Assembly: GCA_008632985.1 (NCBI GenBank)
Contig: QPGO01000079.1
Coordinates: 124,001-188,000, forward strand
Origin: Psammoneis japonica
Taxonomy: Eukaryota
DNA: 64,000 bases
Reading direction: 5' to 3'
Part shown: piece by piece, positions 19,978 to 25,185 of the stretch
Layout: each line of letters opens with the position of its first letter
Numbering within the stretch: the stretch's first letter is position 1
Notes under the pieces: model-generated
Database searches by the model: none
The model's input: the letters and a program-made list of their open reading frames with translations, nothing else
What the model was told of the DNA's origin: nothing
Made by a program: the position numbers and the translations under genes

Positions 19978-20156
19978 CGTAATGCAAGCTCAAGCTGAGG
20001 TTGATGTCAAAACAAAGAAGTGAGTAGACCGAAGAGAGGGAGAGCCTAAGCGTCAGCGAACGCTGGCGAGTGCTGGCGAGCCCTCTCAAACGGCTGCGTT
20101 AATCTAATGTCCAAAATTGACACTGTGCATCAGAAGCGTGCGAGTGAGTCACTGCA
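19978..20156 (-). repeat. 3' LTR (179 bp)
   Basis: Direct repeat of 24997-25185. Adjacent CTCTTCCCTTCC is the PPT on the minus strand. Confidence 0.92.
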
Positions 20157-20274
20157 CTCTTCCCTTCCATGATCCGAAAGAACTGGAGGATCATGCAAAG
20201 GGCCAGACCAAAACCCAAAGAAATCATGCAGCAGGAGGAAACCCAGGTGTTGGGAAGAAAACCTCCTGATCAAC

Positions 20275-23200
20275 CACGAAAAGGAATCAGGCGCCGAATG
20301 TTGAGGTGCTCAACCACATGAGGAGCTCGACGAACCGAAAGCGTGCCACCCACGTGCACTTGAACAACAGGACAAGGGCCGTGAGCACGAGGCTCGAGTT
20401 TGGACGGGTCAGCCGACTTGGTTGGAACTTGGTCACCCACTTGACAATCGCAGGATCTTCTCTTGGCATTGGCTCTTCACAAATTGTCATTGATCAGCAT
20501 CTGGCGATGGCCTTGGATCGTCAATGAGTCTGCCAGCACAGGGATGTCTAGAATCATGTCACGTCCGAACACCACAGCACCTGGTGAAGTCTGCAAAGAA
20601 CGGGAAACAGCACAGCGAGTTGTGTGCATTGCAGTTGCCAGAGCATCGTCCACAAGGCCAGCTGCATCTTGAAGATTTTGAGGTGGATTAGAAGCAATGA
20701 GCGTGCGCAATGCATTGCCGACGGTCTGGTGCATTCGCTCGCAAACAGCGTTGGCTTGAGGGTTGTACGAAGCAGTCGGCACATCATCAATTCTGGCTTG
20801 TTGCAACAGCATCTGAAAGTCGCACCCAGTGAACTCGCCGCCGTTGTTGTGGATGCATTGATTTGGTCTGGGACAGCGTGCAAGCCAGCAGTTTTCGAAT
20901 TGGTTGGCAACATGTCGGGCAGTTTTATTTTCAATTCTCACCAGTTCAACAAGATCAGAAACAGGATCAACACAGGTCAACACCCAAAACTCAATCTCTC
21001 CATTCGGCACTTTGATTTTCCACGGGCCAATGAGGTCAACCCCCACTTCCGACCAGGGAGTCAATGGAGCTTCTCGCTCGGGCAACTCTCCATGGCCAGG
21101 ACCCAATGTTTTGTTGCGTTGACAATCAGCACAAGAGCATTCATCACACATGCAACGCAACCCAGGATGACAACAATGAGCCTGGATCGTTTCACGCATG
21201 CGCTGGCTTCTGGCATGGCCAAGGACGAGATGATGCCACTGCAAGATGTCGGGCATGAGCGCAGTCGGCAAACAGATTTTCCACTGTCCTGGAGGATCAT
21301 TCGGTCGCATGTGACAACACACAAGCGGTCGATTGTTCACACATTCCACAAGGAAACGATTGGGGTGAGCAACGCACATCTGGTTCAACTGTTGGTCCTC
21401 AAACTGGCACTCCTGAATGCGTTGTGACATCATCGGATTCTGCATCTCTTGCATCGCAGGGCAATTCAAGAAAGAATCGAACAGTTCCGGCTCATCCACA
21501 AAGAAAGAGAAGAAGTGTGAGTGGCCTTCATTTTCAATGTTGTGACAACACTTGAATCGGCATGCGCCGAGCTCCAAGTCCTCATCACGGAAATCCTCAA
21601 CTTCAGATGGTTCCTCACTCGGCACCAACTTCGAATCGAGCGGAGCAAAATCAACAACAGCTCCTTTCCCCGGAGCCAAGCTCTTCCCTTCAGAGGGAGG
21701 ATCCATGCAAGGCAAACGAGAAAAACAATCAGCCAAGACATTCAATCGGCCTTCAATGCAATGAAATTGAGGGGCAAAGTCTTCCAGAAAGAGTCGCCAA
21801 CAAAGTGCGCGTTGTGAATTCAAGGTGCGAAAGGCAAGGTTCTTGTGGTCAGTGAACACATGCAAGTCGCCGCCAAGGAGCATCGATCGGTGTTCTCGGA
21901 AGCACATGACAATGGCCAACAGTTCTTTTTCGATCGTTGAACAGTTTTGTTGTGCCGCACTGAGCTTTCGAGACCAGCACGCAACAGGCTTTCCATCCTG
22001 TGCAATCACTGCGCCCATCTGGCAATCACTGACATCGGTGCAGATGTGGAAGGGTTTGTTGTGATTCGGATGTGCCATTGATGTCTCAGCCGCTGGGACT
22101 GCTTTCATCTCATTGAACGCCGCCTGACATTCTGTTGTCCATGTCCATGAGCCTTTGCCTGTAAGATCTGTCAAGGGTTTCAATGGGTGAGAACGCCGAG
22201 GCCACACATTGCGACAATGCGTTGCAGCGCCAAGGAACGAACAAAGCTGCTTGATGTTTTCCGGAGGTTGCACTCGCAGGACAGCCTCCACCTTTTTCTT
22301 CCACGGATGAATTCCAGCTGGAGTTAGCCAATGCCCAAGGAAATCCGTTTCCTGCACACACCATTCGCATTTCAAGGGATTTGCTTTGAACCCAGCTTCT
22401 TCCAAGCGTTGTGAGAGTTCATCAAGACGGTCAAGGTGAATGTCAAAGTCGTCATCAAATTGAGCGAGATCATCAATGTGCGCGTCAACATCCAAGTCGT
22501 GCACAGTTTTCTCAATCAAATGTTGCGCAACATCTGGAGCCGGCTTCAGACCCATTGCTGAACGGCAGTGTTGGTGCTTTCCAAAGGGTGTCACGATTGT
22601 CGTCAAGTCCTTGGAATCGTCATCCAATTTGAACGCATGGTGCATCATTGAGAGGTCCAATTTGGTCAAAAAACTTGCACCCGGCTCTCTTCTGCAGTGC
22701 ATCTTGAATGATCAGTGAAGGACAAACCTTGTGCTTGAGGGCTTTGTTGAGTTCCCGAAAATCGCTGAGCCACCGCACTCGACCATCCTTCTTCGGCCAA
22801 ACAAAAGCACCAGCAGCCCATTCCGTTGTTCCGGCTTCTTCAAGAATGCCAAGAGCCACTGAATGATCCAGTTCTCGTTTGAAAGTCTCGAGATCATTGT
22901 GCGGCACTGCACACGCTCAAGAATGGCAAGGAACAGCGTTGGGATCAACATCAAGGTGAACTTTTTTGCCAGCATGCTTGCCGAGAGTGCCATCAAAAAG
23001 AGCAGTGTGTTTTTCCAATGCGAGGCGCAATTTTTCTTGTTGTTTGGTAGTGAGATGCTTCTGAGCCGATGCCACTTCAGAAGGGGACGTCTCCTCATGC
23101 TTTGCATTGAGGATGCAGCTGTCCCATGCATCACCCCATCGTTAGCTGGCTCATCAGTCAAGTCGTCAAGCCACTGCTGGATGCTGATCCGATGGTTTCT

Positions 23201-23789
23201 TGGTTTCATTGCAATGCTTGAATGGAGCCACTTGACAATTCTGTGTTCGAAATCTAATGTGATGCCTGCTCTCGCCAAGAAGTCCTGTCCCTGCTCTTGC
23301 CAAGAAGTCCTGTCCAAGGATCACATTGTGCTGGCAAGGTGAGTCAAACACATGCACATGCATGCCATCAACATGTTTGGTCTTGTCAAATTCAGGGAGC
23401 ACCACATCCCGCAGTCGAACGTAACGAGCAGATTTGAATTCTCCCGCTGACGTCCGAAACTTCACAACAATTGGTCCTGTGTCCTCCAATGCTGGTGCCG
23501 CTCCAACTGGCAACACCCGAGCATGAATCATTGAATGGGTTCCACCAGAGTCAAGCAACACCCACATCACGCACTTGCTTTCCTCATCTTGAATGAATCG
23601 TGCCGCGAATGATGTTGTGGGGACCATGTTCAAAGGTTTGGTTGGTTTTGTTTTTGGGGTTGGTGCAGCACACTCAAGTCCCACATCGTCTTCGTCATTC
23701 ATGGTGTGATTTTCGAAATCGTCATCATCAAACAAATCAGCAGCATGTGCATGACAATCATCAACGCAATCAGTGCAATCATCAAACAT
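20275..23789 (-). pseudogene. pol: Gypsy pol (aspartic protease, RT, RNase H, integrase), frameshifted, with Tyr->Cys/His substitutions
   Basis: LLDSGG (PR); KKDGRVR..DFRELN, TPFGK and AHIDD for YxDD (RT); TDVSD, EKELLAIV and TDHKNL (RH); HHCC, VDLIGP, NGGEF and PQANAVCER (IN). Confidence 0.93.
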
Positions 23790-24950
23790 GCAGGAATCAG
23801 GAGCGACACACTTGGATGACAGCTCTTCAAGCTCATTGGGTCAGTGTCGACCACGTCCCGAGAAGCGACCACCAGGCCGAAAACTTCCCGCTCCACCTCG
23901 ACACTCACGAGGCCCTCCCATGGAATCAAGATGATGGCTTTCAGCAGACCAATCATTGGGAGGAGCCATTCTGGCCGGATTGCCACAACCGCCGCCATCT
24001 GCATTGGTTCGGGTGTCGTTTTGATGTTGCATGCAGGAGCCACCATCTTCATGATGCTCGCCGCTGTTGCCACCAGAATTGCAGTTTCCTCGACCGCCAC
24101 AATTTCCTTGGCCACCACCACGACCTTGACAGCCACGGCCTTGCCAACCACGACCTTGATTTCCGCCAGTGCATCATTTCCAATCATGCGTCCTGCTCTT
24201 GTGCACATCTCGTGCCACGACAGAGGGAAGCCATCGAAAATCATCTTCTTCTTTTGGTTCTGAGCAATGACTGGATTGTTTCCCGGCAACTTGTTTGTGT
24301 GTCGCACCAAAGTTTCCATTCGATCTGCGTGTGCCTGTGCTTCAACGTCGTGCGGCTTTTTAAGAGCAAGCAAGCATTCATTTGTCGTGTCACGAGCTTC
24401 AATTTCACAACACGACAAATAAAAACGAGCCAACTCTTGGTCGAAACGAGCTGCCATCTTCTGCGCATCCGGAATCGCCATGGTGAGATTGGACCATTTG
24501 TCTTCAGCTGCATCCATCAACACTTCTTCAAAATTGTCAAACAATTCTTCTCCTGCAGTGAATTCGAGTTTTGCAGCCAGTTTACGAAAATGATCTTCCA
24601 CAAACAACAACGCTTCAATTCCATTGCTTCCGTCAAAACAAGGGCACTTTTTCGTACGCGTGCCACCATCATCATGCGGTTGAGTCAATTTTACGAGTTC
24701 CAAATCCGAATGAGCAAATTTCGCAGCATGCAAAATGCACGGTTCCTTGAGGCTCTCGTGATCACTCATCAGGCCAAGTTGGTCCACCAAGAAACTGTTT
24801 CAAGCACTCTACCTTCGATTCGAGTTGTGCTGCCCAATTCACCAAATCCTGTTTGCGTTGTTTTCGTGTCTCCTTTTCTCGTTTTTGTTCCAAAGCCCAA
24901 TTCGCTGCCTTCGCTCTCAAAGTTCTTTTCTCTTGTTTCGCAAGCCTGTC
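23790..24950 (-). pseudogene. gag: Gypsy gag, degenerate
   Basis: ORF 23699-24790 lies between the 5' LTR and the protease, with a Gly/Arg/Asn-rich C-terminal part in shifted frames. Confidence 0.7.
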
Positions 24951-24996
24951 AGTTGTGTTGTTGTTTCTCATTCAGCTCTTTACAATCGACTGCAAT

Positions 24997-25185
24997 TGCA
25001 GTGCAAGCTCAAGCTGAGGTTGATGTCAAAACAAAGAAGTGAGCAGACCAAAGAGAGGGAGAGCCCAAGCATCAGCGAACGCTGGCGAGTGCTGGCGAGT
25101 GCTGGCAAGCCCTCTCAAACGGCTGCATCAATCTAATGTCCAAAATTAATGCTGTGTGTCAGAAGTGTGCGAGTGAGTTGCTGCA
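24997..25185 (-). repeat. 5' LTR (189 bp, TG...CA, with a 10-bp internal duplication)
   Basis: Direct repeat of 19978-20156. Confidence 0.92.

What the first reader, a model, noticed from the sequence alone, without database searches (positions are those of the whole stretch)
19978..25185. LTR pair records the mutation spectrum after insertion
LTRs are identical at integration and the CGTA TSD is intact, so differences arose in the chromosome. My manual alignment gives ~18 substitutions, all transitions, ~17 of them interchanges among TA/CG/TG/CA. Examples: GAGTAG/GAGCAG, CCTAAG/CCCAAG, GTTAAT/ATCAAT and ATTGA/ATTAA. Three sites read CA in one LTR and TG in the other (e.g. GTCACTGCA vs GTTGCTGCA), which implies independent opposite-strand hits on an ancestral TA or CG. 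LTR-based age estimates would be strongly inflated.
Basis: seen in the sequence. Interest (0 to 1): 0.85.

Follow-up and report, generated by a model that had tools for sequence, protein, structure and literature searches.

The report
Diatom repeats lose every TA dinucleotide
The two ends of a jumping gene in a diatom genome differ only by one odd kind of base change, and the same change has erased almost every TA (and many CG) pairs from all the surrounding repeat DNA, pointing to a so far undescribed mutation process aimed at repeats.

Summary
A minus-strand Ty3/gypsy element (19983-25185) has TG..CA LTRs and an intact 5-nt duplication, CGTAA. Its LTRs differ at 14 positions, not about 18. 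All 14 are transitions and all lie in CG/TA/CA/TG steps, including three CA-versus-TG sites.

This is the local trace of something larger. TpA observed/expected is 0.07 in the element and 0.00-0.19 across 20-52 kb. It is 0.4-1.2 in the neighbouring genes and 0.45-1.08 in 78 related elements.

Outgroups fix the direction. 17 of 17 conserved tyrosines in Pol are changed (8 His, 7 Cys, 1 Arg, 1 Ala). T>C occurs only at TpA (11 of 11) and A>G almost only there (11 of 12). Ten changes are CpG>TpG/CpA. A second, unrelated dead gene shows Tyr>Cys at 4 of 4 sites, and a host gene shows none.

So TpA is ancestral, the opposite of RIP. Loss depends on context: ATA/TAT is eliminated and TTAA survives best.

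Best reading: post-integration, repeat-restricted hypermutation TpA>CpA/TpG (fast) plus CpG>TpG/CpA (slower). The chemistry is unknown. Six full-text searches found no report. LTR dating is grossly inflated.

The parts
19978..19982 (.). Left copy of the 5-nt target-site duplication, CGTAA
   Evidence: Sequence read; identical to 25186-25190.
19983..20156 (-). LTR (the 3' LTR in element orientation), 174 nt, TG..CA. It still holds 4 TpA.
20157..20168 (-). Polypurine tract (reverse complement GGAAGGGAAGAG) abutting the 3' LTR
   Evidence: Read directly from the sequence. It fixes the orientation together with the gene order.
20276..23714 (-). Pol relic: aspartic protease, reverse transcriptase, RNase H, integrase. 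It is broken by frame changes near 22660-22700 and between 23166 and 22916. The longest open piece is 22711..20477 (744 aa).
   Evidence: Pfam Asp_protease_2, RVT_1, RT_RNaseH_2, RT_RNaseH and rve. tblastn of five homologues covers 23714..20276. 1 Tyr in 744 aa.
23699..24799 (-). Presumed gag open frame (366 aa), assigned by position only
   Evidence: no Pfam family; 1 Tyr in 367 residues.
25002..25185 (-). LTR (the 5' LTR in element orientation), 184 nt, TG..CA. It holds 2 TpA and carries the extra 10-nt unit.
25186..25190 (.). Right copy of the target-site duplication, CGTAA
19983..41500 (.). Domain A of the hypermutated DNA: TpA O/E 0.00-0.19 and CpG O/E 0.35-0.97 in 500-nt bins. Its left edge coincides with the outer edge of the LTR.
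   Evidence: bin 19501-20000 has 34 TpA and bin 20001-20500 has 4.
41500..52500 (.). Domain B: both TpA (O/E 0.00-0.15) and CpG (0.00-0.28 up to 52000, 0.38 in the last bin) are nearly gone. CpA/TpG O/E is 1.84-2.0 in the 2-kb bins from 42001 to 52000.
28302..35453 (.). Four tandem copies of a 1.79-kb unit inside domain A. Their differences give an independent mutation spectrum.
38412..39923 (-). Relic of an unrelated ~1150-aa protein family; an independent replicate of the tyrosine loss
   Evidence: 4 of 4 conserved Tyr read Cys (TAC>TGC); 0 Tyr in 503 aa.
16000..17500 (.). Small TpA-free island (TpA O/E 0.00-0.13) between normal genes
61000..63500 (.). A further domain free of TpA and CpG

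Best explanation
The finding is a dead Ty3/gypsy LTR retrotransposon in a diatom chromosome. Its LTR pair records a DNA-level hypermutation that acts after integration and is confined to repeat and transposon domains.

The process turns the two self-complementary pyrimidine-purine steps into the non-palindromic pair on either strand:
- TpA > CpA or TpG, which is fast and favoured in ATA/TAT contexts.
- CpG > TpG or CpA, which I estimate at several-fold slower.

**Shown:** the pattern, its direction, its strand symmetry, its restriction to sharply bounded domains, and its dependence on flanking bases.

**Inferred:**
- The CpG arm is deamination of 5-methylcytosine. Diatom transposons are CpG-methylated according to the passages of PMC9998398 that I read.
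- The TpA arm comes from a second enzymatic or modification-linked step on the T or the A of TpA in silenced chromatin. One candidate is an oxidised thymine (5hmU/5fU type) mispairing with G. Another is adenine deamination with a 5'-T preference.

**Consequences:**
- Tyr codons and the TAA/TAG stop codons are erased.
- TA-containing signals are presumably erased too.
- G+C is higher (element 0.50) than in related elements (0.34-0.52, most 0.40-0.48).
- Divergence-based LTR ages are meaningless.
For: **LTR pair.** 14 of 14 differences are transitions in YpR steps, and 0 lie elsewhere.

**Dinucleotide content.**
- Element: TpA O/E 0.07, CpG 0.74, CpA/TpG 1.52.
- Gene regions: TpA 0.4-1.2, CpG 0.65-1.56.
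- 78 of 78 related gypsy loci have TpA O/E 0.45-1.08.

**Direction from 40 outgroup Pol proteins.** There are 299 conserved columns and 46 departures.
- Tyr is changed at 17 of 17 columns (8 H, 7 C, 1 R, 1 A).
- Trp 0 of 11, Gln 0 of 10, Cys 0 of 10 and His 0 of 8 are changed.
- Single-step T>C: 11 of 11 at TpA. A>G: 11 of 12 at TpA.
- C>T/G>A: 10 at CpG out of 12-13.
- In the PR and RT N-terminal pieces, Tyr is changed at 5 of 5.

**Independent relic 38412-39923.** Tyr>Cys at 4 of 4.

**Host TatD control.** 2 of 6 conserved Tyr are changed, neither to H or C.

**Strand symmetry.** 11 T>C versus 11 A>G on the coding strand.

**Context.** 161 TpA survive in 40.3 kb.
- The 5' base is A in 3%, against 27-28% in controls.
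- ATAT and ATAC/GTAT density is 0.
- TTAA stays at 0.2-0.4 of normal density.

**Tandem copies.** 60 transitions and 7 transversions.
- In the robustly polarised set, 26 of 26 transitions are at YpR and 19 of the 27 events are C>T at CpG.
- One site reads TG/CA/TG/TA in the four copies.
- Another reads CA, CA, TG, TG, so the states are inherited.

**Family level.** Contigs of a public run show 423 transition places against 60 transversion places. 12 of the 27 best-supported in-element rows have CG in all other copies where this copy has TG or CA.
Against: - Everything rests on one 64-kb window of one assembly. No whole genome is held, so I could not tabulate other LTR pairs or build the family's ancestral LTR.
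- The ancestral state at the 11 LTR sites themselves is inferred from the coding region, not observed.
- Short-tract gene conversion from other copies could import some LTR differences.
- Among the best-supported rows, 5 are transitions outside YpR steps and 2 are transversions. One row shows TA in the other copies where this copy has TG, and one shows CA in the others where this copy has CG.
- In the tandem copies, 3 C>T at CpA and 4 T>C at TpG events run against the main direction.
- All four Tyr changes in the second relic go to Cys and none to His.
- The 10-12.5 kb TpA-free stretch is a CT-rich tandem repeat. Its lack of TpA may be compositional.
- No base modification was measured. No candidate enzyme was found or could be sought.
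Confidence: 0.7

Rival explanations
1. Sequencing or assembly artefact. Heavily modified repeat DNA (5mC at CpG, some modification at TpA) is systematically miscalled by a long-read basecaller, and the consensus reads CA/TG where the DNA has TA/CG.
For: The pattern is restricted to domains that are probably methylated. At 12 of the 27 best-supported in-element rows, every contig of run X1 reads CG where the window reads TG or CA. Only 0.38 of the sampled 31-mers of the stretch are held by X1.
Against: - Identical sequence contexts give different outcomes. The two LTRs read CA versus TG at 3 sites. The tandem copies read CA, CA, TG, TG and TG/CA/TG/TA at single sites.
- 413 of 2058 laid X1 pieces are at least 99% alike to the window. 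X1 has k-mer contigs up to 315 kb, which noisy long reads would not give (the platform is my inference).
- If every true TA and CG were miscalled, almost no 31-mer would match.
- A 744-codon frame stays open.
- X1 may be the data the assembly was made from, so this support is not independent.
Confidence: 0.1
2. Error-prone patch repair. Deamination of 5mC in methylated repeats gives T:G mismatches. Non-canonical mismatch repair of these resynthesises a patch with a polymerase-eta-like enzyme, which misinserts G opposite T at TpA. This is as in the A:T phase of immunoglobulin somatic hypermutation (recalled knowledge, no call). It is a sub-mechanism of the main reading, not a denial of it.
For: It couples the two arms (CpG and TpA) in the same domains. 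It gives A:T>G:C on both strands. It explains why TpA loss can outrun fixed CpG loss.
Against: The recalled polymerase-eta hotspot is WA, that is TA and AA. Here ApA is untouched:
- AA/TT O/E is 1.25.
- 14 conserved Lys and 12 conserved Asn columns give no single-step ApA A>G change. The one Lys>Arg is multi-step and the one Asn>Asp lies at TpA. The only non-TpA A>G is a Met>Val.

Transversions are rare (7 of 67), unlike the somatic hypermutation spectrum as I recall it.
Confidence: 0.12
3. Ordinary methyl-CpG decay only. The LTR differences are the usual CpG>TpG/CpA transitions of a methylated transposon, and the TA-bearing sites are noise.
For: CpG loss is real and polarised: 10 codon changes, 19 of 27 tandem-copy events and 12 private sites.
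Against: It cannot produce the following:
- TpA O/E of 0.07.
- 17 of 17 plus 5 of 5 plus 4 of 4 conserved Tyr lost.
- The ATA/TAT context rule.
- 4 LTR sites where one LTR still has TA.
Confidence: 0.02
4. RIP or a RIP-like C>T process, perhaps through the RID-like DNMT4 of diatoms, making TpA the derived state.
For: Hypermutation is confined to repeats, with sharp edges. Diatoms encode RID-related DNMT4 enzymes of unknown function (PMC9998398, passages read).
Against: - The direction is opposite. TpA is destroyed, not made.
- TpA/ApT is about 0.07 and (CpA+TpG)/(ApC+GpT) about 1.7, from the O/E values. Both RIP indices point the wrong way (thresholds recalled).
- Conserved Tyr (TAY) becomes His or Cys.
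- G+C does not fall: 0.50 in the element against 0.34-0.52 in relatives.
Confidence: 0.02
5. Editing of the element's RNA before integration (ADAR-type A>I with a 5'-U preference), or G+C-biased gene conversion among copies.
For: From memory, ADAR favours A after U. Biased gene conversion favours A:T>G:C.
Against: - RNA editing would give A>G on the sense strand only, and both LTRs would be identical. Here T>C equals A>G (11 versus 11) and the LTRs differ.
- Sequences that are not retroelements (the tandem repeat, the flank) are affected too.
- Biased conversion would not be TpA-specific: ApT O/E is 0.95 and AA/TT 1.25. It also runs against the CpG>TpG arm.
Confidence: 0.03

Closest known systems
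Repeat-induced point mutation (RIP) of ascomycete fungi
   Same: It is a dinucleotide-specific transition hypermutation on both strands. It is confined to repeated or transposon DNA with sharp domain edges, and it irreversibly wrecks coding capacity.
   Different: - RIP is C>T, mostly CpA>TpA. It creates TpA and stop codons and lowers G+C.
- Here TpA is removed by A:T>G:C changes.
- TAA/TAG stops and Tyr codons vanish.
- G+C does not fall.
- The host is a diatom.
- Whether duplication itself is the trigger is untested.
Methyl-CpG deamination decay of transposons and its known bias on LTR dating
   Same: The CpG>TpG/CpA arm, polarised here. CpG methylation of diatom transposons is reported in PMC9998398 (passages).
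   Different: It accounts for the smaller part of the changes: 10 CpG changes against 22 single-step TpA changes in Pol. It says nothing about TpA.
5-hydroxymethyluracil marking of repeats in dinoflagellates (PMC11572971)
   Same: A thymine modification made by a TET/JBP enzyme is enriched at repeats and silences transposons. Older work cited there reports a preference for TA and TC dinucleotides (Discussion passage read).
   Different: - The passages I read report no mutational footprint.
- TpC is not depleted here (GA/TC O/E 1.15).
- I know of no evidence for 5hmU in diatoms; one search found no paper joining the two.
A:T phase of immunoglobulin somatic hypermutation (polymerase eta, WA hotspot) - recalled, no call
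   Same: A:T>G:C changes with a 5'-T hotspot, coupled to cytosine deamination nearby.
   Different: ApA is spared, transversions are few and there is no strand bias.
Ty3/gypsy (Metaviridae) LTR retrotransposons of diatoms and other marine protists
   Same: The element itself shares the gene order PR-RT-RH-INT, the TG..CA LTRs and the 5-nt duplication. Its Pol is 44-63% identical to 120 listed proteins from metagenomes and transcriptomes.
   Different: This copy is dead. The RT YxDD box reads HIDD (and position 78). It has 1 Tyr in 744 residues.

Membership tests
Ty3/gypsy LTR retrotransposon | Two direct LTRs ending TG..CA | tested here: met
   19983-20156 and 25002-25185.
Ty3/gypsy LTR retrotransposon | Target-site duplication of 4-6 nt | tested here: met
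   CGTAA on both sides, 5 of 5 identical.
Ty3/gypsy LTR retrotransposon | Pol domain order protease - RT - RNase H - integrase | tested here: met
   Pfam hits in that order on the minus strand; tblastn collinear with five full-length homologues.
Ty3/gypsy LTR retrotransposon | Polypurine tract next to the 3' LTR and a primer-binding site next to the 5' LTR | tested here: inconclusive
   The polypurine tract is seen at 20157-20168. I did not recognise a tRNA-complementary primer site at 24980-25001, and no tRNA set was available.
RIP (fungal repeat-induced point mutation) | C>T at CpA giving TpA excess and CpA/TpG deficit | tested here: not met
   TpA O/E 0.07 and CpA/TpG O/E 1.52. Outgroups show TpA>CpA/TpG.
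RIP (fungal repeat-induced point mutation) | Restricted to duplicated DNA, with little spread into unique flanks | tested here: inconclusive
   The domain edges are sharp, and the gypsy family is multi-copy in run X1 (summed contig depth about 2400 against about 30-76 for listed single contigs). The copy number of the other domains was not measured.
RIP (fungal repeat-induced point mutation) | Dependence on a RID/DNMT4-type enzyme and on the sexual cycle | not testable with these tools
   No genome is held. DNMT4 exists in many diatoms (PMC9998398).
Methyl-CpG deamination decay | Polarised CpG>TpG/CpA transitions in excess of other changes | tested here: met
   10 codon changes, 19 of 27 polarised tandem-copy events and 12 of the 27 best-supported family rows.
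Methyl-CpG deamination decay | Cytosine methylation of the affected DNA | not testable with these tools
   No methylation data were available.
Deaminase editing of retroelement RNA or cDNA (ADAR, APOBEC) | Strand-asymmetric changes made before integration, so the LTRs are identical | tested here: not met
   T>C 11 versus A>G 11 on the coding strand; the LTRs differ at 14 positions.
Polymerase-eta type WA mutagenesis | A mutated after T and after A | tested here: not met
   Only TpA is hit. AA/TT O/E is 1.25. Among 26 conserved Lys and Asn columns there is no single-step ApA A>G change.

The most novel reading that the evidence does not exclude
Diatoms, or at least this one, possess a repeat-directed genome-defence mutator with the reverse polarity of RIP. 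An enzyme system recognises silenced repeat chromatin and rewrites palindromic TpA (best in ATA/TAT) to CpA/TpG by modifying or deaminating T or A in DNA. It works alongside 5mC-driven CpG loss. The result is transposons without tyrosine codons, TATA-like signals or TAA/TAG stops, and G+C does not fall as it does under RIP. That last point might matter in a lineage where, as I recall and did not check, A+T-rich DNA can seed centromeres.
Probability: 0.45. Interest if true: 0.95.

Novelty: categorically new. Interest (0 to 1): 0.9.

Why it matters
- **A new class of mutator.** If real, this is a DNA-level, dinucleotide-specific A:T>G:C hypermutation of repeats. All repeat-directed mutators I know of (RIP, APOBEC, 5mC decay) act on cytosine.
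- **A testable pointer to chemistry.** It points to an undescribed base modification or deaminase activity at TpA in diatom heterochromatin. Mass spectrometry and raw-signal sequencing could test this directly.
- **Practical consequences.**
  - LTR-divergence dating fails in such genomes.
  - Gene finders will call long false ORFs. One search listed 170 frames of at least 110 codons in 64 kb, 133 of them overlapping the depleted domains.
  - Homology searches will miss transposons: only 2 weak sub-threshold Pfam hits among 115 ORFs.
  - TpA observed/expected becomes a simple map of silenced DNA.

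Tried and rejected
- **Other LTR copies.** A degenerate LTR pattern found 0 matches in metagenome contigs and 0 in viral contigs. No other copy lies in the window.
- **Read laying.** Read laying printed only 40 of 483 variant places, none inside the LTRs. Its cap is one call, so the LTR sites could not be polarised directly.
- **Dinoflagellate origin.** I considered this because of 5hmU. The spliced-leader motif has 0 matches, and the named TatD relatives are almost all diatoms, with one oomycete. Rejected.
- **Protein atlas** on the UCH gene gave no useful taxon.
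- **Biased T:G glycosylase repair** (recalled TDG context order). Rejected because its best context predicts TpG>CpG gains, and only one Tyr>Arg change implies any such gain.
- **Other TpA-free domains.** Pfam on 115 ORFs gave two weak hits (DUF2631 at E 0.0072, Aminotran_5 at E 0.0017), both under their curated cut-offs.
- **ORF 35864-37720** has no homologue.
- **Related gypsy loci from metagenomes.** These 78 served only as a control. None is TpA-poor, but the search favours intact copies, so this says nothing about how widespread the process is.
- **Earlier findings of the scan.** Nothing on this genome or this pattern.
- **Literature.** Searches found no report of TpA>CpA/TpG hypermutation. 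Subscription journals and supplements were not searched.

Full report
**1. What is there**

The window holds a direct repeat pair at 19983-20156 and 25002-25185. Both copies start TG and end CA. Both are flanked by the same five bases, CGTAA (19978-19982 and 25186-25190).

Between them, on the minus strand, lie three coding relics:
- a 366-codon frame in the gag position;
- an aspartic protease;
- a reverse transcriptase-RNase H-integrase frame of 744 codons.

tblastn with five full-length homologues is collinear from 23714 to 20276. A polypurine run, GGAAGGGAAGAG on the element strand, abuts the left LTR. This is a Ty3/gypsy LTR retrotransposon. Its 5' LTR is the right-hand one. It is dead: the frame changes near 22660-22700 and again between 23166 and 22916, and the RT YxDD box reads HIDD.

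The best named relatives of a neighbouring host gene (TatD, 55365-56159) are almost all diatoms, at 57-64% identity. The host is therefore a diatom without a close named relative. No whole genome is held for the window.

**2. The observation**

A global alignment of the LTRs gives 14 substitutions in 174 aligned positions and one 10-nt indel in a short internal tandem unit. With the gap placed otherwise there is a 15th G/A difference.

All 14 differences are transitions and all 14 fall in pyrimidine-purine steps. As dinucleotide sites they are:

| Site type (one LTR / the other) | Count |
|---|---|
| TA / CA | 3 |
| TG / TA | 1 |
| CG / CA | 3 |
| CG / TG | 1 |
| CA / TG | 3 |

Sites unchanged in both LTRs are CG x6, TA x1, TG x15 and CA x9. 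Since 48% of LTR positions lie in such a step, 11 independent sites all doing so has P about 3e-4.

**3. The LTR pair is the tip of a much larger pattern**

Observed/expected values:

| Region | TpA O/E | CpG O/E | CpA/TpG O/E |
|---|---|---|---|
| The element | 0.07 | 0.74 | 1.52 |
| 1-1000 | about 0 | 0.25-0.38 | - |
| 16000-17500 | about 0 | 0.54-0.87 | - |
| 19983-41500 | 0.00-0.19 | 0.35-0.97 | - |
| 41500-52500 | 0.00-0.15 | 0.00-0.28 (0.38 in the last bin) | 1.84-2.0 (2-kb bins 42001-52000) |
| 61000-63500 | about 0 | about 0.1 | - |
| Gene-bearing stretches | 0.4-1.2 | 0.65-1.56 | - |
| 78 related gypsy loci from metagenomes | 0.45-1.08 | 0.11-1.30 | - |

The window splits into sharply bounded domains in 500-nt bins. 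The left edge of the large domain coincides with the outer edge of the LTR: bin 19501-20000 has 34 TpA and the next bin has 4. None of the 78 related loci comes near 0.07.

A short hairpin-motif array occurs on both sides of the insertion. The copy inside the domain looks like the mutated version of the copy outside it (TA>CA, TA>TG twice, CG>TG).

**4. Direction**

I aligned the 744-residue Pol frame with its 40 best homologues (44-63% identity). Of 299 columns conserved at 85% or more, 46 differ in the element. All 17 conserved tyrosines are changed:

| Change | Count | Codon change |
|---|---|---|
| Tyr > His | 8 | TAY > CAY |
| Tyr > Cys | 7 | TAY > TGY |
| Tyr > Arg | 1 | TAT > CGT |
| Tyr > Ala | 1 | multi-step |

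Other conserved residues are untouched: Trp 0 of 11, Gln 0 of 10, Cys 0 of 10, His 0 of 8.

Counting single-step changes:
- T>C: 11, all at TpA.
- A>G: 12, of which 11 at TpA.
- C>T or G>A: 12-13, of which 10 at CpG.
- Transversions: 5-6.

The frame has 1 Tyr in 744 residues against 3.7% in the homologues (minimum 3.0%). The protease and RT N-terminal pieces add 5 of 5 conserved Tyr changed.

An unrelated dead gene in the same domain (38412-39923, minus strand) has 1107 homologues of about 1150 residues and no Pfam family. It has 0 Tyr in 503 residues, and 4 of 4 conserved Tyr read Cys through TAC>TGC.

As a control, the host TatD gene has 6 conserved Tyr, of which 2 are changed, to Ser and Phe.

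TpA is therefore the ancestral state and CpA/TpG the derived one. T>C and A>G are equally common on the coding strand (11 and 11), so both DNA strands are hit.

**5. Timing**

LTRs are identical at integration (established mechanism), and the duplication is intact. The LTR differences are therefore post-integration, barring short-tract gene conversion.

Suppose the three CA/TG sites derive from TpA. Then about 73% of LTR TpAs and 18% of LTR CpGs were lost per LTR. That is close to the whole-element losses estimated against relatives: about 90% of TpA (0.07 against a median near 0.73) and about 26% of CpG (0.74 against about 1.0). This is my arithmetic.

With these rates I expect about 3.2 CA/TG sites from TpA and about 0.26 from CpG. 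TpA is the likelier ancestor.

No difference lies outside hypermutable steps. The naive Kimura distance of 0.088 (my arithmetic) therefore says nothing about age.

**6. Independent spectra**

*Tandem copies.* Four tandem copies of a 1.79-kb unit (28302-35453, 96.5-98.2% identical) differ at 67 singleton sites, 60 transitions and 7 transversions. In the three copies for which the fourth serves as outgroup there are 27 events:
- 19 C>T at CpG;
- 3 C>T at CpA;
- 4 T>C at TpG;
- 1 transversion.

So 26 of 26 transitions are at pyrimidine-purine steps. TpA was already nearly gone when the unit was duplicated: the consensus has 10 TpA, 70 CpG and 349 CpA+TpG. One site reads TG, CA, TG, TA in the four copies. 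Another reads CA, CA, TG, TG, so the alternative outcomes are inherited DNA states.

*Family level.* Contigs of a public run (X1) laid at 80% likeness or more give 2058 pieces and a summed depth near 2400, against about 30-76 for listed single contigs. There are 423 transition places and 60 transversion places.

Only 40 of 483 places were printed. The 27 printed in-element rows break down as follows:

| Pattern | Rows |
|---|---|
| CG in all other copies, TG or CA here | 12 |
| Three adjacent CA/TG double differences | 6 |
| TA in the others, TG here | 1 |
| CA in the others, CG here | 1 |
| Transitions outside YpR steps | 5 |
| Transversions | 2 |

One contig joins 19974 to 25188 with one extra letter. 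This is a near-exact empty site that differs from the predicted one by a small indel. It is either an allele or a paralogue.

**7. Context**

161 TpA survive in 40.3 kb of depleted DNA.
- The 5' base is A in 3%, against 27% in normal domains and 28% in relatives.
- The 3' base is T in 9%, against 25-30%.

Density relative to the normal domains:

| Tetranucleotide | Relative density |
|---|---|
| ATAT | 0 |
| ATAC/GTAT | 0 |
| ATAG | 0-0.06 |
| ATAA | 0.04-0.06 |
| TTAA | 0.2-0.4 |

The best target is therefore ATA (TAT on the other strand). CpG loss shows no comparable flank rule. ApT (O/E 0.95), AA/TT (1.25) and GA/TC (1.15) are not depleted.

**8. Mechanism**

*Shown:* a domain-restricted, strand-symmetric, context-dependent conversion of TpA, and more slowly CpG, to CpA/TpG after integration.

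*Inferred:*
- The CpG arm is 5mC deamination. Diatom transposons are CpG-methylated through DNMT5 (PMC9998398, passages read).
- The TpA arm needs different chemistry, because it is A:T>G:C.

My preferred class is a modification or deamination of T or A at TpA in silenced chromatin. The nearest precedent is 5hmU in dinoflagellates. It is made by a TET/JBP enzyme, enriched at repeats, silences transposons, and is reported with a TA/TC preference (PMC11572971, Discussion passage). No mutational footprint is described in the passages I read. TpC is not depleted here, and nothing links 5hmU to diatoms (search 48).

An error-prone patch-repair model (polymerase-eta type, recalled) would couple the two arms. 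But it predicts ApA hits and more transversions, and neither is seen.

Rivals judged unlikely or rejected:
- RIP: wrong direction.
- RNA editing: strand symmetry, and the LTRs differ.
- G+C-biased conversion: no TpA specificity, and the wrong sign for CpG.
- T:G glycosylase bias: no TpG>CpG gains.
- Basecalling artefact at modified bases. Identical contexts give different, heritable outcomes, and 413 of 2058 X1 pieces match the window at 99% or more. However, X1 may not be independent of the assembly, and its platform is my inference from contig length.

**9. Novelty and limits**

Six full-text searches found no description of TpA>CpA/TpG hypermutation, in diatoms or elsewhere. Subscription-only papers and supplements were not searched. 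The scan's earlier notes hold nothing on it.

The limits are:
- One window of one assembly.
- The ancestral LTR was not observed.
- Copy number was measured for the gypsy family only.
- No modification data and no candidate enzyme.
- The CT-rich tandem repeat at 10-12.5 kb may lack TpA for compositional reasons and should not be counted as evidence.

**10. Verdict**

The phenomenon is far larger than the LTR pair. I rate it categorically new in its TpA arm, with about 0.7 confidence that it is a real post-integration hypermutation and low confidence in any particular chemistry.

Noticed in passing
window 19830-19950 and 25500-25626: Arrays of a short hairpin-forming motif (GACTTTCCACGAT / ATCGTGGAAAGT) lie on both sides of the insertion site. 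The left array has a normal TpA content. The right array, inside the depleted domain, reads like its mutated version. They may be subterminal repeats of another mobile element into which the gypsy element jumped.
   Followed up: partly
window 28302-35453: Four tandem copies of a 1787-1790-nt unit, 96.5-98.2% identical, with a 129-nt sub-repeat at 28152-28408. No Pfam family in its long open frames.
   Followed up: partly
window 38412-41069 (minus strand): Two consecutive long frames (503 and 381 codons). The first is a relic of an unnamed family of ~1150-residue proteins with 1107 homologues in the representative library and no Pfam domain. It may be an undescribed transposon protein.
   Followed up: partly
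window 16000-17500: A 1.5-kb TpA-free island between normal genes. It overlaps a frame (16825-17748) with a MYND zinc finger and a weak PRiA4_ORF3 match, and has 3 Tyr, 18 His and 19 Cys in 308 residues. It is probably a small mutated insert or a silenced gene.
   Followed up: no
window 10012-11380 (wider region 9500-12500): A CT-rich tandem repeat of 441 nt, three copies, with extreme strand skew (AT skew down to -0.67) and almost no TpA or CpG.
   Followed up: no
window 19974/25188 (run X1): One contig of the public run joins the two flanks and skips the whole element, with one extra letter at the joint. It is an empty allele or paralogue that differs from the predicted empty site by a small indel next to the duplication.
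   Followed up: no
window 20-52 kb, all six frames: Only TGA is left as a stop codon, so the depleted domains are full of long overlapping open frames on both strands. 133 of the window's 170 frames of at least 110 codons overlap them. These would mislead gene finders.
   Followed up: partly
window about 21000-21770 (Pol residues about 315-560 of the 744-aa frame): About 250 residues between RNase H and integrase have no Pfam match. I did not test this here.
   Followed up: no
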